DNA from: the human T2T-CHM13v2.0 reference genome, Homo sapiens
Direction of reading: 5' to 3'
DNA: 64,000 bases
Assembly (NCBI GenBank): GCA_009914755.4
Contig: CP068257.2
Coordinates: 13,376,001-13,440,000, forward strand
Numbering within the stretch: the first letter of the stretch is position 1; each line of letters starts with the position of its first letter. Below are positions 898 to 63,677 of this stretch, piece after piece. The position numbers and the translations under genes were made by a program. The notes below the pieces were generated by a model. It did no database searches. It saw nothing but the letters and a program-made list of their open reading frames with translations, and was not told the origin of the DNA.

Positions 898-1748
898 AAA
901 CATTAAAAGGTGAACAAAGACATGAACAGACAGTTCTAAAAAGAAGACATTCGTGCGGCCAGCAAATATAGATATAAAAGCTCAACATCACTGATCATTA
1001 GAGAAATGCAAATCAAAACCATAATGAGATAACCATCTCATGCCTGTCAGAATGGTGATTATTAAAGAGTCAGAAAACAACAGATGCTGGCAAGGTTGTG
1101 GAGAAAAAAGAATACTTTACATTGCTGGTGGGAGTGTAAATTAGTTCAACCATTGTGGAAGACAGCGTGGCAAGTCCTCAAAGACCTAGAGGCAGAAATA
1201 ACATTTGACCCAGCAATCCCATTACTGGGTATACACCTGAAGGATTATAAATCACTCTATCATAAAGACACATGCACATGTATGTTCACTGCAGCACTAT
1301 TCACAACAGCCACGACATGAAATCAACCCAAATGCCCATCAGTGATAGACTGGATAAAGAAAATGTGGTACATATATACCATGGAATACTATGCAGCCAT
1401 AAAAAGGAATGAGATCATGTCCTTTGCAGGGACATGGATAGAAGCCACTATCCTCAGCAAACTAACGCGGAACAGAAAACCAAGCACTGTATGTTGTCAC
1501 TTAAAAGTGGGAGCTGAATGATGAGAATACATGGACACATTTCTGGGGAACAATACACACTGGGCCTGTTGGGTGGGAGGTGTGGGGGGAGGGAGAGCAT
1601 CAGGAAGAATAGCTAATTGATGCTGGGCTTAGTATCTAAGTGATGGGTTGATCTATGCAGTAAACCACATGGCATATGTTTACCTATGTAAAAAACTTGC
1701 GCATCCTGCACATGTACCCCAGAACTTAAAATAAAAGTTGAAGAAAAA
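898..1748 (+). mobile_element. Primate LINE-1 (L1PA/L1PB-type) 3' end: ORF2 C-terminal remnant plus 3' UTR
   Basis: ORF 1084-1320 translates to ...CWWECKLVQPLWKTAWQVLKDLEAEITFDPAIPLLGIHLKDYKS..., which is recognisable L1 ORF2p C-terminus. The 3' UTR motifs gggaggtgtggggggagggagagcatcag...cacatgtaccccagaacttaaaataaaa are present, with an A-rich end at 1745. Confidence 0.85.
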
Positions 1749-2879: not shown

Positions 2880-3722
<843 letters not shown>

Positions 3723-3751
3723 TATACACACACACACAAAACTTTGGTATC

Positions 3752-3786
<35 letters not shown>

Positions 3787-3799
3787 TGTGTGTGTGTGT
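3723..3799. repeat. Compound dinucleotide microsatellite (CA)n...(GT)n replacing the Alu A-tail
   Basis: acacacacacacaaaac at 3723-3740 and an uninterrupted (tg)n run of about 22 copies at 3755-3799. Confidence 0.9.
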
Positions 3800-8073: not shown

Positions 8074-8862
8074 TTGGAGGTCTCCAAGCATTTCAAGTTT
8101 AATATGTCAATAACTGAGTCCCTGTTATTCCTAATCTCAGATCAGCTCCATTCTTCCAATTGTTCAGGCTGCCATCCGAGATGCCTCTCTTCCTCTCACA
8201 CCCACATACAATCTTTTAGCAAATTCTGCAGGCTTTACCTTGGAATCCAGAATCCAGAATTCAGCTACTTCTTACTGTCCCCATTCAAGTCATCTCCTTC
8301 TCTCCTGAATTATCATAATGGCCGCCTCACTGGTTTCCTTGCTTCTGTTTTTGACACCTCTTTGGTCTACTTAACACAACTGCTGAAGCGATTCTGCTAA
8401 AACATGATATTGGGCCACTCTTCTGCTCAAAACTTTCTAGGGGCTTCCCCCTCTGACCTCATCTCCTGTGACCCTCCCTCACTCACCCCACTCCAGCCAC
8501 AGGAACTTCGACTGGAATACTCTCCTTCCCAGAGGGCTGCATCACTAGCTCCCATGCTGACTCAGCCTCTACTCAAGTCACCCTCCGAGTAAGGCCTTCC
8601 CTGGGTGTCATCTAAAACTTCCTGGACATCTCCCCTGCCCCTGCCCTCAATACCCTCCATTCTCCTCTCTTTGCTTCAATTTTTATTTAGCACTTAATAA
8701 GATACCATAAATTGAATTGCTTTATCTTATTTGTCTATCTCACCAATAAAATGTAAGCTCCAGGAGGGTAGCAATTTTTTTTCTCTTTTGTTCACTGTTC
8801 TATCCCCAGGACTTAGAAGAATAACCGAAATACAGCAGGCACTCAATAAATATGACTGGGTA
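8074..8862 (+). mobile_element. LINE-2 (L2) 3' end
   Basis: Long colinear match to the L2 3' terminus: ...ctcatctcctgtgaccctccctcactcaccccactccagccaca...aggccttccctgggtgtcatctaaaac...tttatttagcacttaataagata...ctatctcaccaataaaatgtaagctccaggagggtagc...ccccaggacttagaagaataaccgaaatacagcaggcactcaataaatat. Confidence 0.75.
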
Positions 8863-9036
8863 GGGTGCATAGTTCACACCCATAATCCCAGTGCTTTGAG
8901 AGGCTGAGGCAGGAGATTGCTTGAGCCCAGGAGTTTGAGGCTGTGGTGAGCTATGCTAACCCCACTGCACTCCAGCCTGGGCAACAGAGTCCCTGTCTCC
9001 AATAAAGGAAAACAAATAAATAAATAAATAATAAAC
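8862..9036 (+). mobile_element. Alu-family monomer-length element (FLAM/FRAM-like, about 140 bp) with (AAAT)n tail
   Basis: gggtgcatagttcacacccataatcccagtgctttgagaggctgaggcaggagattgcttgagcccaggagtttgaggctgtggtgagctatgctaaccccactgcactccagcctgggcaacagagtccctgtctc, followed by aataaaggaaaacaaataaataaataaataataaa. Confidence 0.8.
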
Positions 9037-9982
9037 ATGTCTGTACTTTGTGATCTCACCAGAGAGTCTGCAGAGATGAGCAAAACTCATATCCTCACCA
9101 GCTGTGACAAACACTGCAGTGACCTCCTCAAAAACACACTGTCCTCTTCCTTATCCACCTGTAGAAACTCACCCTCTTCCCCTCAGGAGGTGAATCCCAA
9201 TTAAGTAAAGCCACTTGTGACAAATAATGTCTACTCTGATAGTAAGAGGCAGGGCTTAGGCATGGGTATATGATTTAATTATGACCAGTGAAGTTGACAA
9301 GGAAATGTGGGAAAATAGCCATCTTTCAACCATGAGGAGTGACATCACCAAGTCACTCAAGATGGCAGAGTAGAAAACAGAAAATACCATGTGGGACACT
9401 AATAAGATCATTATGACAATTCATTAACTGCCAATACTCCAAATTTTTTGTTGAGTGAGAAGATACACCCTTACTGTTTACTTTACTTGTAGTAAGGCCT
9501 TCTATTACTTATATTTTTATTAACACAGAAAAGTTTTTACGAATATTCACACAGTTTCCCACACTGGGTTAAGTCAAACTAACACGAAGTTGGATTGATT
9601 CCTCTGGTAGAAGTCAGGGGTTTTCCCTTTCTTCATGCTGCATGCCTAGACAACATGTCACATGACAATAAAACAAGATATTTCAATGGAAATCATATTT
9701 TCTCATAGGAATAATATGTTACAAACAGGGTTTCCTCTTAATTAAGAATTGAAAATAAACATATTACCAAAGCAAAGGCAGTACAAATATAGAGTTCTAA
9801 TAAGTTAAATGGTAAAATTATGCTCCCAATGACTACATATTTAACAATGTTCTACAGAATAAGTGCTCACTCAGAGGGAGGAAAACATGGAAGGAGGGAG
9901 AGAGGAGGATAGGTGGTAAGGAGGGAAGAAGGGAGGTCCCAAGGCCAAATAAATTCAGGAAATGATGATTTAAGTTAAAATA

Positions 9983-11240
9983 GATCACGACATTCCCTTT
10001 CTATGTGTATACACTCTGGAAGGCGGTTGGAGGATCACTACCTTCCCCTTCTATGTGTGTACACTCTGGAAGGCGCTCGGAGGATCACCACATTCCCTTT
10101 CTATGTGTGTACACTCTGGAAGGCACTCAGAGGATCACCACATTCCCTTTCTATGTGTGTACACTCTGGAAGGTGTTCAGAGGTTCACCACATTCCCTTT
10201 CTATGTGTATACTCTGGAAGGCGGTTGGAGGTTCACTACATTCCCTTTCTATGTGTGTACACTCTGGAAGGCGCTCGGAGGATCACCACATTCCCTTTCT
10301 ATGTGTATACACTCTGGAAGGCGCACGGAGGATCACCACATTCCCTTTCTATGTGTGTACACTCTGGAAGGCGTTCAGAGGTTCACCACATTCCCTTTCT
10401 ATGTGTATACACTCTGGAAGGTGGTTGGAGGTTCACCACATTCCCTTTCTATGTGTATACACTCTGGAAGGCGGTTGGAGGTTCACCACATTCCCTTTCT
10501 ATGTGTATACACTCTGGAAGGCGCTCGGAGGATCACCACATTCCCTTTCTGTGTGTATACACTCTGGAAGGCGCTCGGAGGATCACCACATTCCCTTTCT
10601 ATGTGTATACACTCTGGAAGGCGCTCGGAGGATCACCACATTCCCTTTCTATGTGTGTACACTCTGGAAGGCGTTCAGAGGTTCACCACATTCCCTTTCT
10701 ATGTATATACACTCTGGAAGGCGGTTGGAGGTTCACCACATTCCCTTTCTATGTGTATACACTCTGGAAGGCGCTCGGAGGATCACCACATTCCCTTTCT
10801 ATGTGTATACACTCTGGAAGGCGCTCGGAGGATCACTACATTCCCTTTCTATGTGTATACACTCTGGAAGGCGCTCGGAGGATCACCACATTCCCTTTCT
10901 ATGTGTATACACTCTGGAAGGCGCTCGGAGGATCACCACATTCCCTTTCTATGTGTATACACTCTGGAAGGCGCTCGGAGGATCACCACATTCCCTTTCT
11001 ATGTGTGTACACTCTGGAAGGCGTTCAGAGGTTCACCACATTCCCTTTCTATGTGTATACACTCTGGAAGGTGGTTGGAGGTTCACCACATTCCCTTTCT
11101 ATGTGTATACACTCTGAAAGGTGCTCAAAGGACACCACATTCCCTTTCTATGTGTGTACACTCTGGAAGGCGCTTGGAGGATCACCACATTCCCTTTCTA
11201 TGTGTATACACTCTGGAAGGCGCTTGGAGGACACCATCAT
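9983..11240. repeat. Minisatellite (VNTR): about 25 tandem copies of a 50-bp unit, consensus cacattccctttctatgtgtatacactctggaaggcgctcggaggatcac
   Basis: Period about 50 bp read directly (actctggaagg recurs at 10261, 10311, 10361 ...). Variant units cgctcgg / cgttcag / cggttgg / tggttgg recur in a higher-order order. There are two CpGs per canonical unit. Confidence 0.95.
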
Positions 11241-12129
11241 TCATCTGAGATGCTCCCACTCATCTCTGAAGTAATCCTAAGTTCAAAGTGGAGGAAGGAA
11301 GTAGGTCAGTGATAGTTTGACCCAAAGGGGTAATTTTGAGTCAAAGGGTTTTGATTTTTAGCTCAAAGCCAAGCCATTAATAACAAAGCCAGAACTATGA
11401 CTATCCAAAACAAGAACTCTTCAAATTCTCACTACAACCACCTAACAAACCACACACTGCCTCATTATAAAAGTCTTAAAAACTTTGAAAATTCTAATAA
11501 ACTCCTTGTACTATCAAGTAACTTACTGTAGACAAAATAGAAGATATTTTTTAAAACTTTCCTATAGGATAAACCTAACTCTATCCTTAACACAGTATCT
11601 GTAATATACAGTAATTGTTTAGTTATCAGTAGTTTTAGTAGCTGTCATTTTTGAAAAAATATTTGGATAAATGATGGCTCTAAAAAAAAAAACCGTTCGA
11701 AGTCACTGAAAAAAAGTAGGTATTTCCTTCAAAACCTTCTCACCATATTCTCTAATAGTAAACAAAGGCTTAAAGTTATTCTGTTGGTAAAACTTCAAAA
11801 AGCAGCAACTGAATCAATTTAACTAAGGACTTTAGTCCAGAGAGGATGTCTTGCTCATTGTAAGGTTGACTACAGAGGTCTACTGATTTCAGATCCAATC
11901 CCTGCTTCCTTCTGCTCTCCCCTGGTCACACTACATTCAGGAAATGAAGCAGGAGATGCAGCAGAAGGGTGAGTTAAGACTGGAATTAAAAGTCTGAAGC
12001 CACAGAAGGACCAAAAGATGTGTGTGATGTAAAAATGATTTTACAAAAATATAAAGTAGTCTGTTTGATTTCAAATATGGTTCTTTTAAATAATGGGCCA
12101 CTGAGAAAGCTGAAAAATTAAAATGATCA

Positions 12130-12461
<332 letters not shown>

Positions 12462-14727: not shown

Positions 14728-15023
<296 letters not shown>

Positions 15024-22930: not shown

Positions 22931-23350
<420 letters not shown>

Positions 23351-24110: not shown

Positions 24111-24709
24111 CAATTAATCACAGAGCCTTAATCAATTAATATGCCAGGCTTAAGTAAAAATATAAAAGAGAAGACGGTAGTTTTATATGGACCAACTACA
24201 ATGAAAAATATATGCCTTTAATTACTACACACACATGCACATTCTCTCTCTCATCCACTCATTCACTGTCAGTTCTTCATCAGTAAGACTCCTCCAGTAT
24301 CTTATTTCAATGCTCTCCTAATCCCCCCGGCCCAGACAATCAGCCTGGTTGGGTGGTAGGTGTCCATTCTACCCAGATGAGTTGGGACTCTAGTGTCGCT
24401 GTCTGACGTCCTATACCAACCAGCATGGTACTCAGGCATTATTAATACAAGTCTCTAAGCACATAAAGGCATACCTCAGAGATATAGTGGGTTCCATTCC
24501 AGATCACTAAAATAAAGCAAATATCACAATAAAGCAAGTCACACAAGTTTTTTGGTTTCCTAGTGCACATAAAAGTTATGTTTACACTGTACTATAGTCT
24601 ATTAAGTGTGCAAAAGCTTTATGTCGAAACAATGTACATACCTTAGTATAAAAATACTTTATTGCTAAAAATGCTAACAATCATGTGAATCTTTAGAGAG
24701 TTTTACTCT

Positions 24710-25009
24710 TCAGTGGTGGGCACCTTGCCTCCATATTGATGGCTGCCAAATGATCAGGCTTGTGGTTGCTGAAGGTTGGGGTCTCTGTAATGATTTCTTA
24801 AAACAAGACAACAATGAAGTTTGCCACATCGGCTGATTCTTCCTTTCACAGAATAATTCTCTGTAGCATGTAATGCTGTTTGATAGCATTTTACCCACAG
24901 TAGAATATCTTTCTAGATGGGAGTCAATCCTCTCAAACCCTGCCACTGTTTTATCAATTATGTTTACATGATATTCTAAATCCTTCGTTGTTATTTCAAC
25001 AATGTTCAC
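24710..25009 (-). pseudogene. Degenerate Tigger1 (pogo-like) transposase C-terminal remnant
   Basis: The 99-aa [60 protein letters not shown]...[22 protein letters not shown] lies inside Tigger1 on the strand where its transposase is encoded. It resembles the Tigger transposase C-terminal region as I remember it. The rest of the reading frame is broken. Confidence 0.55.
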
Positions 25010-26219
25010 AGTATCTTCAATCAGGAGTAGATTCCATCTCTAGTAACTACTTTCTTTGCTCATCTATAAGGAGTAACTCCTCATCCGTCCATGTTTTCTC
25101 ATGAGATTATACAAATTCAGTCACATCTTCAGGCTCCACTTCTAATTCTAGTTTTCTTGCAATTTCCACCACATCTGCAGTTACTTCCTCCACTGATGTC
25201 TTCAACCCGCCAAAGTTATCCATAAGGGGTGGAAGCAGCTTCTTTCAAACTCCTATTAATGTTAGTATTTTGACCTCCTCCCATTAATCACAAATGTTCT
25301 CAATGGCATCTAGAATGGTGAATCCTTTTCAGAAGGTTTACAATTGCCTTTGCCCAGATCCATCAGAGGAATCACTATCTATGGCAACTACAGCTTCACA
25401 AGATGTATTTCTTCAATAGTAAGACTTGAAAGTTGAAATTACTCCTTGATCCACAGGCTACAGAATAGATGTTGTATTAGCAGCCATGAAAATTAACATT
25501 AACTTCCTTGTACATCTCCATCAGAGCTCTTGAGTGACCAGGTGCGTGGTCAATAAACAGTAATATTTCGATAGGAATCTTTTTTTTCTGAGCAGTTGGT
25601 CTCAAGAGGGGGCCTAAAATATTCAGCAAACCATGCTGTAAACAGATGTTCTGTCATCCAGGCTTCTTCTTCCATTTATACAGCATAGGTAGAAGAGATT
25701 TAGTATAATTCTTAAGGGGCTTAGGATTTTTGGAATGGCCAAACATTGGTTTCCACTTCAAGTCACCAGCTGTATTATCCACTAACAAGAAAGTCAGTTT
25801 GTCCTTTGAGGTTCTGAGGCCAGGCATTGGTTTCTCCTCTCTAGCTATTAAAGTCCTAGATGGCATATTCATCCAACAGAAGGCTGTTTCATTTACACTG
25901 AAAATCTGCTGTTTAATGTAGCCATCTTCATCAATGATCTTACCTAGATCTTCTGGAAGCTTGCTGTAGCTTCTACATCAGCATTACCTGCTTCATCGTG
26001 CACTTTTATGTTATCCAGGCAGCTTCTATCCTTAAACTTCATGAACAAACCTCTGCTAGCTTCCAACTTTTCTTCTGCAGTTTCTTCATCTCCTCTCGGC
26101 CTTTGTGGAATTAGAGTGAGGCGCTGCTCTGGATTAGGTTTTGGCTTAAGGGAATGTTATGGCTGCTTTGATTTTCTAGGCAGACTACTAAAATATTCTC
26201 CATATTAGCAATAAGGCTG

Positions 26220-26917
<698 letters not shown>

Positions 26918-29889
26918 GGCTGCTTTGTGTTCTTATCATTCATGTGTTCACTGGAGTAGCACTTTTAATGTCCTTTAAGAACTTTTCCTTTTACATTCAC
27001 AACTTGGTGAACTGGCACAAGAGGCCTAGCTTTCAGAAGAGCTTGGCTTTTGACATGCCTTCCTCACTGAGCTTAACCTTTTCTAGCTCTTGATTTAAAG
27101 TAAGAGACCTACAACTTTTCCTTGCATTTAAATACTTAGCCATTATAGGGTTATTAATTGGCCTAATTTCAATATTGTTGTGTCTCAAGGAACAGGGAAT
27201 CCCAAGGAAAGGGAGATGAGATGGGGGAACAGCCAGTCTGTAAAGCAGTCAGACCACACTGAACAAGTTCGCCGGCTGATATGGGCACAGTTCATGGTAC
27301 CTCAAAACAATCACAATAGTAACATCAAAGATCACTGATTACAGATCACCATGACACATATAATAATATGAAAAAGTTTTATATATTGTGAGAATTATCA
27401 AAACATGACCACAAAGACACAAACTGAAAACATGCTGTTGAAAAAATGGTACTTGCTCAATGCAGGGCTGCCACAAACCTTCAGTTTGTAAAAAACAAAA
27501 TTATCTTCAAAGAGCAGTAAAGTGAAGCACAATAAAATGAAGTATGCCTACACATCAGCAACACCAAAGCTACCCTACATCATTAACAGGGTATGTCACC
27601 TAAGTGTATAAGTCAAAGATATCTAGAATCTTAACTACAGGCAGGATGTTCCCAAAATCTTAGTCGACAGAAGGCATCTCCTCAAAATAGAGTTTATAAT
27701 CAGACAAAAACAAACAGAACCTGAAGAGACCTCCAGGTGATAAAGGAAAAACAAAAAGCATTATCATTTCCTATTAGGACATTACTTTTTTAGGAGCTAA
27801 ATAAAAACATTACCAAATCATTTTATGTAATAAAATTTAACCTTATTTTGACCTTTCTCATAAAGCAAATAAACCTCTCTATCCAATAAGGTTCCATCTG
27901 AACTATGTAAGATGATAGGCAATACCTTAATTGCATTCATTTACATGACTCTGAAACTATTCTGGGCTGAAGTCACTGACCGCAAGGTCACAGAATACAA
28001 AAAAGTAGAATGTGTGTAATTTACCAAGGAGAAATGATCCACTTAGACAGTGTGGCAGCACCTTTTCCATCCTTCATTAGGGGATACTAAATGCTTAATG
28101 CAATCAACAGGTGTAGACATCTCCATTTAAAATATATCATACAAATACATACACACACACACGTATTCATTTTACAAATATATAAATAACACTAAAATAT
28201 ATATTTGAATAAGTCCATCATATATTATGGCTTTCTTCTTAAAATTAATCTGCCTAAATAAAGAACAATTCTATACCCTAATAGCATTTAGAAGCAAAAT
28301 ACAATATAGGGCCATTATTTTCCCATTGTCTTATAAAATTTCTAACACCTAATATTCAGGTTACAAAGCTATAGTTTTAGGAAAAGAATTTAAAACACAG
28401 GATGCCAAGTATGTTAAGAGTTCTTGCTTTCATTTTTTATAACCTAAACACGAATATATTCAACTAATTTGCTTAGAGAAGCATAGTTTACATGTCTCAA
28501 ATCCAATAATACTATATTAATAAAAGAAAAGAGGTACAATAGATTGACAGATTAACAATCATAGATTACAGGGGATAATGTGTATTCTCCAAAACCTCAA
28601 GAGTATATCAAAACACACACACACAAAAGTTAACCCTACAAATTATTTCCCTTTAGCTTTGTAAAATGCAATTGTAACACAAACAAGGTATTATTGGCAC
28701 TTGAAGTTACTGGAGAAAAGAGAAGGAACTCAAAAGAATAGGATTTAGGGTACTTTTTAAATGTTTATAATATTAGTACATATGCAGACTGTGAAGTATT
28801 TGTTTCAGGTTTAATACAACATCACCAAAAGATTCATTTAAACAGTTTCCACACATTAAATTAGGTAAATCTCTCACATTTAATTTACTATCCAAGCACT
28901 TTTACACTACTCAAGCCAATCTTTTGCAACTTACAAATGATTTAATGAAAAAAAAGCTATGATATTATAAAATTCATGCTTCTTCATTTTCTCTCCCTAT
29001 AGAGAAGGGCAAAACTTTTCTTACGTAAATCTATATTAGATCCAAATCATTTCAAGAGATGCTACTCCACAAAGAACACACAGATGGACATATATTTAAT
29101 TAATATATTCCTAAAAAACTTCAATACATGATGTCACTTTGTCCTTTGTAAATGAGAAATAAAATTTCTCAATGTCTTCTTATAAGTTAAGCCAATTCAC
29201 TTTGGATTAGCTTAGTTTTAAAATAAATGCATACATATACATAATAAAATACTAATTCCTATTGTTATCTACATATAACTTTCAGTGACCACATCTTGGT
29301 ATTTTAATTTTCTTTCTATAAGAAACAATTCAGAGTCAGACATGAAATATATGTGTGTAACTAGGTAACAGGCAATATTTGGTTCCTATTCTTTGACAAG
29401 GATAAGCTATTGAGACCAATCAGAACCTTCCAATGTGTTTCCAATGTTCTTGGCTACATTTCTACTTAAACTCAAACCTCAGGAAGAATATAATCTGTTA
29501 AGATAACTTTTGTTTTTCTCAAACATTCTCTCTCTGCCTATCCCAAAAGAATCAATCAATGCTTTATGTTACTAAGTTCACTGATTATGAGGACAATGTC
29601 TGAAGATTTCATACACATAATATTGGGATCTTCCCTTTCCTTGAATTTCAGAATATGTTGGAGCCAATTTCTATAACCAAAACGTAGTATTTGTGTATCT
29701 TTAAATGAGCTACAATCCAGAACTGAAAATGAACTATACTAATGGCATCGCACTTAACAACTTTCAATGAAGAAAGAAATAGGTTAGAGTCTAAGTTCAA
29801 ACACACTTCAAACTCACGTGACCACAGTAAATCCTACCCTTAAAGCAAGTACATATGTGTGTATTGTTTATGTTTCTTATTTTCTGTAT

Positions 29890-41700: not shown

Positions 41701-43299
41701 CTTCTGAATTAACATCTTTTGGAGAATAGCCCACTCAACTTGATATGTCATAATTTTCAATTCTAAAGGTGGCACGGATAATTTAAAGTGGCACTTGCTA
41801 TTTATTACTTAAATAATTGTTCTCTTGGACGGGCTTTTGAAAGCTAGTACTTCTTAATCATTTTCGACTATATCAGAACTGTAACAGACATGTCAATTTA
41901 AGCAAACTTCATGAGCAATAAACTAACAAACAGACTCTAGGTGGTGGTATAGGTTATTTTTTATCATGATGTTTTGCACTTATAACTGCAAGAGTCAGAA
42001 AAGCCTTTAGTCTCTTCACACACTTCTTTAGTGCAAAGTTAACAATATTTTAGGGTGTTAAAATTAGCAAAATCCAAGTTCTGCAGAGTTTAGAAATGCA
42101 TGTAAAAGAGGCATTAAACCTGGTTTTCAACTAACTTCCCACAGGCATTAAACCTGGTTTTTCAACTAACTCATTTGAATAAAATCAACAACGAACAGTC
42201 CTTTTTTTTTTCTGTTATGTTCTGATGTATATTTTACTCACACTCCTAGGGCACTTTTAAAGGTAAGTTTGGAAAGAGGTCTTTCTCCACCAGAGTATGA
42301 AACAGACTAGAACAACCAATCCTACAACCTGCAGGGCAGTAGCCGCTCCACTAATTGATTCTCCTTCTTTGTCTCTAGGAACTATGCCCAGGCAGAAAAA
42401 AAGTTACTGTAGGTGATGAAGCCAGTGCTCCCTGAACCAAATAAACCCTATCGACGTTACCGAACTGCCGGGCAAAACCAGAGCAACTCACTTACTTGGA
42501 AGGTGAAAAACACTTCAACATACTCCAGGCGGCAACCGACACTTAGGGGCCAGGCAGATGAAACACCATTTGTTTAAAAAGTCTATTATTTCACTGTCTC
42601 TTCAACAAAGGTGGAAAACTGATGATTAAACACTGAATAATGCCACCCACTTACTAAACCTATGATTCACTAATAAGCAGGTTCAATGCAATTCATAACT
42701 TTAAAGAATGAATTACCGAAGCCCCTTGCTTCACAAATTCCCCCAAGAAACAGAAAGAGCATTCATCACATATAACCCGACAACCATTTTTACTATGGAC
42801 ACCTACAGATGGCTTCTCTTCCTCTAAGGACACAATTTCCTTCACAATCCCACATGTAATCATTTACAATACCAGAAACAAACTCCAACTCAGTTCCACC
42901 AACTGGGTTTTTAAAAATCCTTGTGCCTAAGAACGTCTTTTTTCCCCAAAGTAAAATGTGCCATTAAAAAATATTTTTAAAACGCAAAAGTGCTTATCAT
43001 TCCGTACTTCTTTTACTACCTTCAGCAGCCAATTATTGACGTGATAAAAGGTAGAAACTCCTGGAATGCTTCAGAGATCAACATGTGTCACAGACTCCCA
43101 GCCTGTCCGCCTCTAAGACACAGTTGGTTCCTTTGTTCCTTCTGACTGAACACCAACTCCTGATCAAAATTGGGAAACTACTTTGGAAGGGATGGGAGGG
43201 TCTGCAGAATACATCCACGGAAACCTTCATAAAACAATATTCAATCGTAATAAGGTGGACACAGAAGAAGGGAGAAAAGGCAGCCTCCCGGACTTCCAC

Positions 43300-45200
43300 C
43301 GGGCTCACCCTAAATGGGGGCCGGCCCCTGGCTCCTGGTAAAATGATGGCTGAGGCCTCGGGTCCGTGAGCCTCGCCATCGGGAGGGGACCGCGAGTGCG
43401 GGCAGAGCGGCCCGGGGTCGGGTGGGGGCCGGGCGAGCTGTCCCTTTTCCTATTCACTTTCCCAGCCGGGTATCCAGCGAGCAAGGAGCAGGGAGGCACC
43501 CAGGCGAAAGGCGCCGCCCAGGATCCGGCTGGACAGCAGGACGGAGAGCGGCGAGGCGAGCGGTGCCCGGGGTTCGGGACCGAGAGGGCAAGCGAGCGGG
43601 GGCAACCCCGACCCGGCCCCCCGAGTCCGGCCCCGCTCAGGGGCCACGCGACGGCCGCCCCCTTGCCCAGAACTGGCACGGACGGGCGGGCCGACCCGGG
43701 GCCACTCCACAACTTGCCGGCCCGCCGCCCCGGCCCCCCGCGAGAACCCGGAGACTCGAACCAGGCAGCAGAGGCAGGATTTCCCCGGAAACGCGCCCTC
43801 CCCGCCGCCCCGACGCCCCCGCGGCCCTGCCAGCCAAGCGAGAGCCGACGCGGGCCGCGCTCCCGGGCCGTTTCCGGCGGCGCCGGCGGCCGCTACTCCT
43901 GGCGCCCTGGCCGCGGCCGTCACTCACCCCAGGCCGCCGCGGCTCCCAGCCTCCGGCTCCGTCAGGCTCGGTCCGCGAAGGCGCCTGCCGCCCCGTCCTG
44001 GCCCGGCGCCCCGGCGAGCTCTTCCCTCCGACCAGCGGCGCTCACGGCGCAGCGGCGGACGCGAGGCCACGGGCGGACGGGCGCGCGCGGGTGGCGGGCG
44101 GGCGTGGGGCCGGGTCGTCCCTGCGCCTCGCCGCCGCCTCCTCCGCCGCCGCCTCCCGAGTTCGGGGCTCTGCTGCAATGTCTGCGAGGCTGACTTTGAG
44201 CGCCTCGCTCACCGCCCGCCCGCAGCCGCGCTCCTCCCTCCGCCGCCGAGTCCGCCGCGGCCCAGTCCCTCCCCTCGCCGCCCCACGCCATTCAGCTCTT
44301 CAGCCAAGTTTCTTAACCCTTTTCTCCCCCTCCCTCCCATTGTCACCCGGTCAGGAGGAAGCCGCGCGGATCCGGGCGGCTCACAGGAGCTGCGGAACCC
44401 CCTCTGTTTCGTGGATTTCCTTCTCGCCTGCTCTCCGGGTGTCCCAGACGGGGCTGCAAGACCCGGAGGCAGCGAGAGGACCGCGTCCCCGAGAGAGGGG
44501 CTGCACGGCGCGCCCGGGCCGTCCCCCGGGCTCCCAGCTCTGTCCAGCCGCCCGCGACCGCTGCAGGCGCCTGGACAGCTCCTCCTGGGGACCGGGGAAA
44601 GCGCTCTTGGGACCCAGGCCGAATGCTCCCGTTTGGGCACAGCCTGGGGGCCGGGGCGCCCCAGACGCTCCAGGGTCCCCGCCTGCCTTAAGCGTCTACC
44701 TCCTCCCCTTCACCCCACAACACGCGCTCTCTGGGCCCCCTTTCACCCACCCACCCCCAATTTCTATCTCCTTGTAATCTGTGTGTCCTGCTTTAATGTT
44801 GGGGGGCACGGGCGCGAACTCTGGGTCACTTTGACCCCACGCCCAGCACGTAGTAGGCGCCCAGCACTCGTGTGGAGCGACTCTGGGAGGAAAACTAGGA
44901 AGGAGACCTGAGGAGCGCCCCGCTCAGCTCCCTGGACAGACGTAGGACCCAGGAGCAGGGTTAATCCTCGGCTGCTTTGTCACTGCGAAGTCTCCAGCGG
45001 AGTCTGTCAGCCAATCTGCATCATCCCCGGGAAGGATCTGACCCAACAAGACAAGGGAAAAGGAGCAGGGCTGCTACTTCTTCAGCAGCTCTCCTCGGTT
45101 CGGTCTCCGAATAAGAAATAACAATTACATCACGAGGCCGGGGCGGCAGCGCGGTGGAGCCTCTCGGTTTCCTGCAGCCTAATCTCACTGAACCCGCCTC
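43300..45200. promoter_or_regulatory. CpG island (dense core about 43340-44700, GC-rich shoulder to about 45200); candidate promoter and first exon of an unidentified transcript
   Basis: There is an abrupt switch from AT-rich CpG-poor DNA to more than 70% GC with CpG at near-expected frequency. Multiple GC-box-like motifs (gggcgg / ccgccc) are present, there is no TATA, and CCAAT motifs lie at 43029 and 45012. A consensus splice donor (ctgGG|GTGAGTga) sits on the minus strand, with exon last base 43928. Confidence 0.75.

Positions 45201-49491: not shown

Positions 49492-49520
<29 letters not shown>
49492..49520. repeat. (CA)n microsatellite, about 14 copies
   Basis: acacacacacacacacacacacacacaca read directly. 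Confidence 0.95.
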
Positions 49521-52134: not shown

Positions 52135-52163
52135 TGTGTGTGTGTGTGTGTGTGTGTGTGTTT
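52135..52163. repeat. (TG)n microsatellite, about 14 copies
   Basis: gtgtgtgtgtgtgtgtgtgtgtgtgtgtg read directly. Confidence 0.95.
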
Positions 52164-53158
52164 TTATATAACAAAATAATTAACAACATTTCTTCTAGGA
52201 CCCAGAAACCAGGCTTGGATAATACATGAGAGAAACTTCCAGTTGCACAAAGGGACTGCCGTGTGGAAATTCCACTCACCTACCATCTGCCACATGGAAC
52301 CAATAAGGATACAGACTAAATACTAGAACCTTCATTAGAACTCTACAGAATAACCATACACTTCAACCAACCACTTTATTTGCCAAGCAGCCCTATAGAT
52401 TCTGCCTTACAATGTTCATATCCGGCTTCCATGTCTTATGTAGGTGCATTTTGTTGGTGGAGACCAGGTCACATGTGAAACCTTAGCTTCATCTGAGTCT
52501 GAGAAATGCCACATTCAGCCTTCCAGTAACCTGGAAAATATACTAGGAAGAGATTAGAGTAGTATTTAGTGTGTGTCATTCTACAGTATCTGGCACAGTG
52601 GCCAAAGGTTTATTTTTGAGTTTTCATTATATTTTAACTGACATACTAAAATTTGAGGAAAGTCATGATGAAATATATAGTAAAATTAATAAATAGCATG
52701 AATTACATTGACTTACTATGTTTCCTTTTCTCTGTAGGATTCTTCTTGGTTTGAGCGTTTGTATTAGTCAGTTTTGGGTCGCTATAACAGAATACCTGAG
52801 GCTGGGTAATTTATAAAGAAAAGGTGTTTATTTAGCTCACAATTCTGTAGGCTGGGAAGTTTAAGGGCATGGCCCTGGCTTACGGAGAGGGCTTTCATGC
52901 TGCATTATAACATGGCAGAGGTCAAAGGAAAAGCAAAAACGTGTGAAGAGACAAAACCCGAGGAGCTTCTCACCTTTATAACAAAGCACTCTCTTGGGGA
53001 CTAATTCATTCCCAGGAGGACTAATCCAGTCCTACCAGAGGGAAAACTCACTACCAAAAGAATGGCACCAAGCTATTCAAGAGGGACTTGCTGCCATGAG
53101 CCATACATCTCCTATTAGGCCCTGCTTCCCAGCACCACTACACTGGGGATCAAATTTC

Positions 53159-53287
53159 TCTTCTCTTCTCTTCTCTTCTCTTCTCTTCTCTTCTCTTCTC
53201 TTCTCTTCTCTTCTCTTCTCTTCTCTTCTTTCTCTTTCTTTCTTTCTCTCTTTCTTTCTGTCCCCTTCCTTCCTTTTTTTTTTTTTT
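53159..53287. repeat. (TTCTC)n pentanucleotide microsatellite of about 15 copies, then a degenerate polypyrimidine tract, then poly-T; expanded tail of the adjacent minus-strand Alu
   Basis: ttctcttctcttctc... from 53159 to about 53229, tttctctttctttctttctctctttctttctgtccccttccttcc to 53272, and t15 to 53287. The tract lies inside the Alu TSD pair gatcaaatttc (53148-53158 and 53571-53581). Confidence 0.9.
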
Positions 53288-53585
<298 letters not shown>

Positions 53586-63651: not shown

Positions 63652-63677
63652 GTGTGTGTGTGTGTGTGTGTGTGTGT
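63652..63677. repeat. (TG)n microsatellite, about 13 copies
   Basis: gggtgtgtgtgtgtgtgtgtgtgtgtgtgtag read directly. Confidence 0.95.

What the first reader, a model, noticed from the sequence alone, without database searches (positions are those of the whole stretch)
9983..11240. 1.26-kb CpG-containing 50-bp minisatellite with higher-order variant structure
About 25 head-to-tail copies of a 50-bp unit (cacattccctttctatgtgtatacactctggaaggcgctcggaggatcac) sit in otherwise unique AT-rich sequence. The units are not random variants. Three or four unit types recur in the same order along the array: cgctcgg...atcac, then cgttcag...ttcac, then c/tggttgg...ttcac. For example the order is seen at units 2-5, 6-10, 11-15 and 16-22. 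That pattern points to expansion by unequal exchange of multi-unit blocks. Arrays like this are typically length-polymorphic. With two CpGs per canonical unit (roughly 40-50 CpGs over 1.2 kb) it could also be a methylation-variable element. The unit has no stop codon in any forward frame, and 50 is not divisible by 3. That is why the ORF tool reports three overlapping ORFs of 370-423 aa here. They encode the same 50-residue peptide repeat and are artefacts.
Basis: seen in the sequence. Interest (0 to 1): 0.6.

Follow-up and report, generated by a model that had tools for sequence, protein, structure and literature searches.

The report
Ordinary non-coding 50-bp primate minisatellite
This is a real but ordinary non-coding minisatellite: about 25 tandem copies of a 50-bp unit in repeat-rich primate DNA, which grew by duplicating blocks of several units; its long "genes" are reading-frame artefacts.

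Summary
Tandem Repeats Finder reports one array at 9983-11242 with period 50, 25.3 copies and 92% matches. It is the strongest tandem repeat in the window.

- **Unit order:** the units fall into three types, A, B and C, ordered C AABC AABCC AAABC AAAAABC AAA. Every B sits between an A and a C (permutation p about 0.0002). Exact matches of 153 bp at lag 350 and 141 bp at lag 650 are longer than the longest at lag 50. This supports multi-unit block duplication. It is not a strict higher-order repeat, because the blocks hold 4-7 units.
- **CpG content:** There are 32 CpGs, not 40-50 (observed/expected 0.43). All 19 lost CpGs are TG or CA transitions, which suggests germline methylation.
- **ORFs:** the three plus-strand ORFs of 423, 370 and 397 aa exist and are artefacts. 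The period is not a multiple of 3, some units carry 1-2 bp indels, and no homologue was found in 5.8 billion proteins.
- **Context:** Alu, L1 and Tigger-like relics, no exon detected, and a CpG island 32 kb away.

Copy-number polymorphism, methylation state and genomic address could not be tested with these tools. Verdict: a known kind of element, of low interest.

The parts
9983..11242 (.). The minisatellite array: 25.3 head-to-tail copies of a 50-bp unit. Consensus in my register: TTCCCTTTCTATGTGTATACACTCTGGAAGGCGCTCGGAGGATCACCACA.
   Evidence: TRF period 50, score 2084. Units parsed. 50-bp spacing. Lag identity.
9983..10240 (.). Degenerate left edge. A 10-bp partial unit, unit 1 (C-like) and the first block, units 2-5 (A A' B C). 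It carries private substitutions and a 2-bp deletion in unit 5.
   Evidence: Variant table. Rare-variant load at edges versus centre.
10241..10490 (.). Block of units 6-10: A A B C C.
10491..10740 (.). Block of units 11-15: A A A B C.
10741..11090 (.). Block of units 16-22: A A A A A B C. Units 16 and 18-20 are identical to the consensus.
11091..11242 (.). Degenerate right edge, units 23-25. These are A-like units with lost CpGs and 1-bp deletions.
10552..10704 (.). 153-bp stretch repeated exactly 350 bp (7 units) downstream at 10902-11054. It is the longest exact self-match in the array.
10326..10466 (.). 141-bp stretch repeated exactly 650 bp (13 units) downstream at 10976-11116. It covers the B and C(T) unit pair.
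   Evidence: units 8-9 are identical to units 21-22
10003..11274 (+). Artefactual ORF of 423 aa. Two overlapping ORFs, 10005-11117 (370 aa) and 10055-11248 (397 aa), read the same 50-residue repeat in other phases.

Best explanation
This is a neutral, non-coding minisatellite (a candidate VNTR) in interspersed-repeat-rich primate DNA, most likely human.

A 50-bp unit was amplified in tandem. Deamination of methylated CpGs, plus a few other substitutions, produced unit types B and C from the canonical type A. Out-of-register events spanning several units then copied whole A..A-B-C blocks. These events would be unequal sister-chromatid or interallelic exchange, gene conversion, or replication slippage. 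The centre of the array stayed homogeneous while the edge units decayed.

The array has no sequence-specific function that can be shown. Any effect would come through copy number, as a change in the number of CpGs or binding sites near a gene. The three long plus-strand ORFs arise because the unit happens to contain no stop trinucleotide and its length is not a multiple of three.

Shown here: the array, the unit types and their order, the long-lag exact matches, the CpG-transition pattern, the edge decay, and the absence of coding evidence.

Inferred: the recombination or slippage mechanism, germline methylation, and neutrality.
For: - **Array and period:**
- **Ordered variants:** the label string is CAABCAABCCAAABCAAAAABCAAA, with permutation p = 0.001 for B followed by C and p = 0.0002 for A-B-C.
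- **Long-lag matches:** exact matches of 153 bp at lag 350 and 141 bp at lag 650 exceed the 119 bp at lag 50.
- **CpG decay:** all 19 CpG losses in the units are C-to-T or G-to-A changes at the four CpG columns. That is 19 of the 60 cells that differ from the consensus.
- **CpG density:** 2.54 CpG per 100 bp in the array against 0.68 in the rest of the window, but observed/expected is only 0.43.
- **Edge decay:** rare variants concentrate at the edges, 9 in 8 edge units against 3 in 17 central units (Mann-Whitney p = 0.002).
- **Non-coding:** the period is 50; units 5, 23 and 25 carry 1-2 bp deletions; there is no homologue among 5.8 billion proteins; Pfam gives only summed sub-threshold matches with no individually significant stretch; about 7-10% of random 50-mers of this composition lack stops on one strand.
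- **No special structure:** single-strand DNA z-scores are -1.1 and -0.5.
- **Primate context:** Alus and an L1 ORF2 fragment (E = 1.9e-55).
- **Literature:** the human genome holds more than 55,000 to about 70,000 such VNTRs. Duplications and deletions anywhere in the repeat are the main source of allelic difference, and 61.5% of the 467 human-specific VNTRs that paper examined are intronic (PMC8327921; bioRxiv 10.1101/2020.12.16.423078).
Against: - Nothing contradicts this explanation, but key parts are untested. There is no second haplotype or species, so polymorphism, age and the actual mutational mechanism are all inferred.
- The permutation test was run on a pattern that had already been noticed in the same data.
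- Cells in the variant table are not independent events, because variants are inherited through duplication. The CpG enrichment p-value (1e-7) is therefore overstated.
- Neutrality is assumed. About a quarter of tested human VNTRs show some association with nearby gene expression (9,422 of 39,125; PMC10234305).
Confidence: 0.9

Rival explanations
1. It is a copy-number-dependent regulatory VNTR. Each unit carries GGGAATGTG on the minus strand (CACATTCC on the plus strand), which resembles the TEAD/MCAT site 5'-TGGAATGT-3', together with two CpGs. The array would then act as a multimerised, methylation-sensitive enhancer or silencer for a nearby gene, for example the one driven by the CpG island at 43.2-45.2 kb.
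For: - CACATTCC occurs 21 times in the array and once in the remaining 62.7 kb of the plus strand.
- TEAD4 binds 5'-TGGAATGT-3' (PMC13247214).
- Thousands of human VNTRs are associated with local expression and methylation and are enriched at enhancers and promoters (10.1101/2020.12.16.423078; PMC10234305).
- CpG density in the array is 3.7 times the window background.
Against: - The motif count only reflects the unit being repeated. One 7-8-mer match among hundreds of known factor motifs is expected by chance in any 50-mer.
- The match is 7 of 8 to the cited site.
- There are no chromatin, ChIP or expression data.
- The CpG decay suggests the array is methylated, and so silent, in the germline.
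- The array lies 32 kb from the only CpG island in the window.
Confidence: 0.07
2. It is the internal tandem-repeat region of a transposable element, such as an SVA-type VNTR or a repeat inside an LTR or DNA transposon, rather than a locus-specific minisatellite.
For: - Many primate VNTRs derive from mobile elements.
- SVA VNTR units are of similar length (my own knowledge).
- A purine-rich tract (9870-9940) lies just upstream of the array.
- The window is full of interspersed repeats.
Against: - There is no unit-like sequence anywhere else in the 64-kb window.
- The flanks adjoining the array show no Alu-like, SINE-R or poly(A) parts. The nearest Alu pieces are about 1 kb away on each side.
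- The purine-rich tract is on the wrong side and in the wrong orientation for an SVA hexamer.
- The unit is 50% G+C, not the G+C-rich SVA unit (my own knowledge).
- No repeat-consensus library was available, so this rival is not formally excluded.
Confidence: 0.03
3. It is a protein-coding, or at least translated, 50-residue repeat, as the three long ORFs would suggest.
For: Three ORFs of 370-423 aa with no stop codon. Pfam DUF5949 formally exceeds its cut-off on one of them (26.4 against 22.7 bits).
Against: - The period of 50 is not divisible by 3, so all three frames read the same peptide.
- 1-2 bp indels in units 5, 23 and 25 shift the frame.
- No homologue was found in 5.8 billion proteins.
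- The Pfam score is a sum of weak repeated matches, with 0 individually significant stretches.
- A stop-free unit is expected in about 7-10% of random units.
- No exon-like Pfam signal was found anywhere in the window.
Confidence: 0.005

Closest known systems
Human non-coding VNTRs / minisatellites as catalogued genome-wide (more than 55,000 to about 70,000 loci with motifs of roughly 7-10 bp or longer; e.g. the intronic WDR7 and CACNA1C VNTRs)
   Same: The unit is tens of base pairs long and the array is about 1 kb. It lies in non-coding DNA. Internal motif variants are interspersed along the array. Growth is by duplication or deletion of units anywhere in the array (PMC8327921; PMC10234305; 10.1101/2020.12.16.423078).
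   Different: Nothing distinctive was found. Copy-number variability, the defining 'V' in VNTR, could not be tested. The locus could not be matched to any catalogue entry or paper.
Classical hypervariable G+C-rich minisatellites (Jeffreys-type, e.g. MS32, MS31A, CEB1) analysed by minisatellite variant repeat mapping
   Same: Interspersed variant repeats form a readable 'code' along the array. Unequal exchange and conversion are the presumed mutation mechanisms (my own knowledge; Jeffreys et al. as cited in PMC8327921 and PMC10234305).
   Different: The unit is 50% G+C with little strand asymmetry. By eye it lacks the GGGCAGGANG-type core. The surrounding sequence is AT-rich and has none of the G+C-rich character of subtelomeric DNA, although the chromosomal position is unknown. 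No polarity of variation was seen, and both edges are degenerate.
Higher-order repeats of satellite DNA (alpha-satellite type)
   Same: Distinct monomer types recur in a fixed order, which implies amplification of multi-monomer blocks.
   Different: Block length is not fixed (4, 5, 5 and 7 units). The monomer types differ by only 3-4 of 50 bases. TRF finds no period above 50. The array is 1.26 kb in euchromatin-like sequence, not a long satellite block.
SVA retrotransposon VNTR region
   Same: A tandem array of units of roughly 35-50 bp in primate DNA, containing CpGs (my own knowledge; PMC7697779 concerns such elements).
   Different: There is no hexamer, Alu-like, SINE-R or poly(A) architecture next to the array. 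There is no other copy in the window. The unit sequence is unrelated by eye.

Membership tests
Minisatellite / VNTR | Repeat unit longer than 6 bp (classically about 10-100 bp) | tested here: met
   Period 50.
Minisatellite / VNTR | Uninterrupted head-to-tail array, hundreds of bp to several kb long, at a single locus | tested here: met
   1,260 bp, 25.3 copies, spacing 50 bp throughout. No other copy in the window.
Minisatellite / VNTR | Interspersed internal variant units | tested here: met
   Three unit types plus private variants at 18 variable columns.
Minisatellite / VNTR | Copy number varies between individuals | not testable with these tools
   No second haplotype was reachable. The unit is absent from viral, metagenome and prokaryote collections apart from two chance 20-mers.
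Classical G+C-rich hypervariable minisatellites | G+C-rich, strand-asymmetric unit with a shared GGGCAGGANG-like core | tested here: not met
   Array G+C is 0.486. No such core is visible in the unit. The core sequence itself comes from my own knowledge.
Satellite higher-order repeat | Fixed-length multi-monomer unit, with copies far more alike than the monomers within it | tested here: not met
   Blocks of 4, 5, 5 and 7 units. No TRF period above 50. Identity is 0.947-0.958 at lags 250-350 against 0.931-0.937 at lags 100-200.
CpG island | G+C at least 0.5 and CpG observed/expected at least 0.6 over at least 200 bp | tested here: not met
   Array: G+C 0.486, observed/expected 0.433. Central units 11-20: 0.494 and 0.596. 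The true island at 43200-45200 scores 0.695 and 0.863.
Protein-coding tandem repeat | Unit length a multiple of 3, frame preserved, homologues or domains present | tested here: not met
   Period 50, with 1-2 bp indels. No homologues. Only summed sub-threshold Pfam matches.
SVA VNTR | Flanked by a (CCCTCT)n hexamer and an Alu-like region on one side, and SINE-R plus poly(A) on the other | tested here: not met
   The flanks were read directly. The Alu scans place the nearest Alu pieces about 1 kb away. No consensus library was available, so this check was by inspection only.

The most novel reading that the evidence does not exclude
The array could be a functional, length- and motif-polymorphic regulatory VNTR. 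About 21 phased TEAD/MCAT-like sites (GGAATGT), each 50 bp apart and each next to two methylatable CpGs, would form a methylation-gated multimerised enhancer. Its strength would scale with copy number, affecting the gene driven by the CpG island 32 kb away. A weaker variant of this reading is that the plus-strand transcript of the array forms a repeated stem-loop (RNA z-score -2.8 for three units).
Probability: 0.05. Interest if true: 0.35.

Novelty: already known. Interest (0 to 1): 0.12.

Why it matters
It matters little as it stands. Arrays like this number in the tens of thousands in the human genome, and TRF finds them routinely.

Its practical value is as a possible multi-allelic marker, or as a candidate expression or methylation QTL, once it is placed on a reference genome. 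Its tidy A..A-B-C unit code would make allele histories easy to read in long-read pangenomes.

It also shows how a stop-free repeat whose period is not a multiple of three produces three long false ORFs. One of those ORFs even gives a false Pfam 'pass'.

Tried and rejected
- **Copies elsewhere.** I scanned viral contigs, metagenome contigs and genome contigs for unit k-mers. These gave 0, 2 and 0 matches. Both metagenome matches are isolated chance 20-mers in unrelated sequence. No comparative or polymorphism data could be obtained.
- **Protein homologues.** A search with the 423-aa ORF against 5.8 billion proteins found nothing at E <= 0.001.
- **Literature.** Full-text searches for seven unit substrings on both strands and for '50-bp VNTR' phrases found nothing relevant. 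Of three VNTR papers checked for supplementary files, one held a single short file with no match, and the other two held none as text.
- **Locus identity.** I scanned all open segments of at least 55 aa in six frames against Pfam, leaving out the array, the Alus and the CpG island. The only hit was a weak CENP-B_N match from a Tigger-like relic, and no exon was found. Rfam and tRNA scans were empty. The gene and the chromosomal address remain unknown. A Pfam scan using raw DNA references failed because of stop codons.
- **Flank origin.** The flanks show no proto-unit above shuffled controls.
- **Structure.** Single-strand DNA folding of three units is unremarkable on both strands, and so is minus-strand RNA. 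Plus-strand RNA gives z = -2.8. That is one of four tests, rests partly on the palindrome pairing between units, and has no covariation support, so I did not pursue it.
- **Readings rejected.** Strict higher-order repeat, CpG island, coding repeat and SVA VNTR were each rejected; see the membership tests.

Full report
**1. The observation**

Tandem Repeats Finder reports one dominant array in the window, at 9983-11242. It has period 50, 25.3 copies, 92% matches, no indel columns and score 2084; the next best score in the window is 160.

Splitting the array at the invariant TTCCC(T/C)TTCT anchor gives 25 units. 22 are exactly 50 bp, unit 5 is 48 bp and unit 23 is 49 bp. Unit 25 was printed as 53 bp only because its slice runs on into the first bases of the right flank; it also carries a 1-bp deletion. 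The repeat finder sees the same 50-bp spacing.

In the indel-free core (units 6-22), self-identity is 0.93-0.96 at every multiple of 50 bp. At other lags it averages 0.24, with a maximum of 0.39. The array is therefore real and far beyond chance.

**2. Anatomy of the array**

In the register TTCCCTTTCTATGTGTATACACTCTGGAAGGCGCTCGGAGGATCACCACA there are 18 variable columns. Three unit types account for most of the variation:

- A, the canonical type: ...GCGCTCGGAGGATCAC.
- B: GTGTGTAC...GCGTTCAGAGGTTCAC.
- C: ...G(C/T)GGTTGGAGGTTCAC.

The label string is C AABC AABCC AAABC AAAAABC AAA.

All four B units are preceded by an A and followed by a C. In 200,000 permutations of the labels this has p = 0.0002 for A-B-C, and p = 0.001 for B followed by C. 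The test was run on a pattern that had already been noticed in the same data, so the next result matters more.

The longest exact self-matches lie at long lags, not at the unit lag. One is 153 bp at lag 350 (10552-10704 = 10902-11054). The other is 141 bp at lag 650 (10326-10466 = 10976-11116). The longest at lag 50 is 119 bp. Units 8-9 and 21-22 are identical B and C(T) pairs. Blocks of several units have therefore been copied.

This is not a strict higher-order repeat. The blocks hold 4, 5, 5 and 7 units. TRF finds no period above 50. The lag-identity peaks at 250-350 bp are modest, 0.947-0.958 against 0.931-0.937 at lags 100-200.

Rare variants and all the indels sit at the two edges: 9 rare variants in the 8 edge units against 3 in the 17 central units (Mann-Whitney p = 0.002). 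This is the usual picture of an array that is homogenised in the middle and decays at the ends.

**3. CpGs**

The array holds 32 in total, not 40-50.

| Region | G+C | CpG per 100 bp | CpG observed/expected |
|---|---|---|---|
| Whole array | 0.486 | 2.54 | 0.43 |
| Rest of the window | 0.362 | 0.68 | 0.21 |
| CpG island at 43200-45200 | 0.695 | 10.3 | 0.86 |

The array is CpG-enriched relative to its surroundings, but it is not an island.

Every one of the 19 CpG losses within units is a C-to-T or G-to-A change at one of the four CpG columns. That is 19 of the 60 cells that differ from the consensus. These cells are not independent events, because variants are inherited through duplication. 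Several of the changes that define types B and C are such transitions.

I infer that the array has been methylated in the germline, that deamination produced the variants, and that block duplication then spread them. The array's present methylation state cannot be read from sequence.

**4. The ORFs**

The unit has no TAA, TAG or TGA on the plus strand, and it does on the minus strand. Because 50 is not a multiple of 3, each frame cycles through the same 50-residue peptide.

A stop-free unit is not remarkable. It occurs in 10% of random 50-mers of the same composition and in 6.7% of shuffles of the consensus.

There is no evidence of coding:

- No homologue was found among 5.8 billion proteins.
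- The 1-2 bp deletions in units 5, 23 and 25 shift the frame.
- Pfam returns only scattered weak families with no individually significant stretch. One of them, DUF5949, formally exceeds its cut-off (26.4 against 22.7 bits), but only by summing repeated weak matches. It is a false positive.

The ORFs are artefacts.

**5. Surroundings**

The window is primate DNA:

- At least six full Alus and one Alu monomer-like piece.
- An L1 ORF2 3' fragment at 1066-1518, with E = 1.9e-55 to human ORF2p residues 1140-1264.
- A Tigger/pogo-like relic at about 24.7-27.25 kb on the minus strand, supported by a weak CENP-B_N match.
- A MIR-like stretch upstream of the array, recognised by eye.

Other findings on the surroundings:

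- The immediate flanks have no similarity to the unit above shuffled controls, and nothing unit-like occurs elsewhere in the window.
- The nearest Alu pieces are about 1 kb away on each side of the array.
- No Rfam family or tRNA was found.
- No Pfam-detectable exon lies in any open segment of at least 55 aa.
- The only promoter-like feature is the CpG island at 43.2-45.2 kb, about 32 kb from the array.

The chromosomal address and the host gene could not be determined, because none of the searchable collections holds primate genomes.

**6. Structure and motifs**

Single-stranded DNA of three units folds no better than shuffles, with z = -1.1 and -0.5. Minus-strand RNA gives z = 0.0. Plus-strand RNA gives z = -2.8. 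That fold comes from CCCUUUC...GGAAGG pairing around the 10-nt palindrome GUGUAUACAC, which also pairs between units. It is one of four tests and has no covariation support, so I treat it as a curiosity.

Each unit carries CACATTCC, which is GGAATGTG on the other strand. It occurs 21 times in the array and once elsewhere on the plus strand. It matches 7 of the 8 bases of the TEAD4/MCAT site 5'-TGGAATGT-3' (PMC13247214). Any 50-mer will match some factor motif, so this is a lead only.

**7. Mechanism**

The best explanation, at confidence about 0.9, is a neutral non-coding minisatellite. It grew and is kept homogeneous by out-of-register duplication and deletion spanning one to several units, through unequal exchange, conversion or slippage. 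CpG deamination supplied most of the recurrent variation.

This matches what is reported for human VNTRs in general. [quoted passage not shown] Of the 467 human-specific VNTRs examined in PMC8327921, 61.5% are intronic. [quoted passage not shown]

About 70,000 VNTRs with motifs of at least 10 bp have been genotyped. Thousands of them are associated with local expression or methylation (10.1101/2020.12.16.423078). Motif composition, as well as length, can be associated with expression: 9,422 of 39,125 VNTRs (PMC10234305).

A regulatory role for this array is therefore possible, and I give it about 0.05-0.07. No evidence here supports it.

**8. Comparison and verdict**

On every testable criterion the array is a minisatellite: unit size, head-to-tail array, single locus and interspersed variants. 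Copy-number variability is untestable here.

It is not any of the following (see the membership tests):

- a classical G+C-rich hypervariable minisatellite;
- a satellite higher-order repeat;
- a CpG island;
- a coding repeat;
- an SVA VNTR (this last by inspection only).

Its interpretation was sound and appropriately hedged. The element is an ordinary member of a very large, well-catalogued class. Interest is low, at about 0.12. It would rise only if pangenome, methylation or QTL data showed unusual instability or a regulatory effect.

Noticed in passing
window 43200-45200: A strong CpG island: G+C 0.695 (up to 0.80 in 400-bp windows), 207 CpGs, observed/expected 0.86, with negative GC skew on the plus strand. 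It is probably a promoter. No convincing coding ORF or Pfam domain was found in or near it, and the gene was not identified.
   Followed up: partly
window 1066-1518 (+): A fragment of LINE-1 ORF2 (C-terminal region), with E = 1.9e-55 to human ORF2p residues 1140-1264 in PDB entry 8sxt.
   Followed up: yes
window ~24700-27250 (-): A decayed Tigger/pogo-type DNA transposon. Open segments resemble pogo transposase by eye, and there is a weak CENP-B_N Pfam match (E = 0.01) in segment 27036-27248. An Alu at 26420-26750 interrupts it.
   Followed up: partly
window ~3440-3760, 12130-12430, 14740-15020, 22990-23320, 26420-26750, 53260-53570; partial 8860-9000: Six full-length Alu elements in both orientations and one monomer-like piece, which establish a primate origin. 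A MIR-like stretch lies at about 8640-8830 (recognised by eye).
   Followed up: partly
window 53156-53256: A (TTCTC)n pentanucleotide microsatellite of 21 copies, directly abutting the A-rich tail side of the Alu at 53260-53570. There are also dinucleotide runs: (GT)22 at 3756-3799, (AC)14 at 49492, (TG)13 at 52135 and (GT)13 at 63652.
   Followed up: no
window 10055-11245 (+), frame-3 artefact ORF: Pfam DUF5949 exceeds its curated whole-protein cut-off (26.4 against 22.7 bits, E = 6e-6), yet no single stretch is significant. This false positive arises from summing weak matches to each repeat copy.
   Followed up: yes
window 10741-10890 (+): As RNA, three plus-strand units fold better than shuffles (z = -2.8; 2 of 200 shuffles fold as well), through CCCUUUC...GGAAGG pairing around the 10-nt palindrome GUGUAUACAC. 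This is not seen for the minus-strand RNA or for DNA parameters, and there is no covariation evidence.
   Followed up: partly
window 9870-9940: A purine-rich, low-complexity tract (GGAGGGAGAGAGGAGGA...GGAGGGAAGAAGGGAGG) about 45 bp upstream of the array. Its similarity to the unit's GGAAGG...GGAGGA segment is no better than chance (score 8 against a shuffle mean of 7.2).
   Followed up: yes
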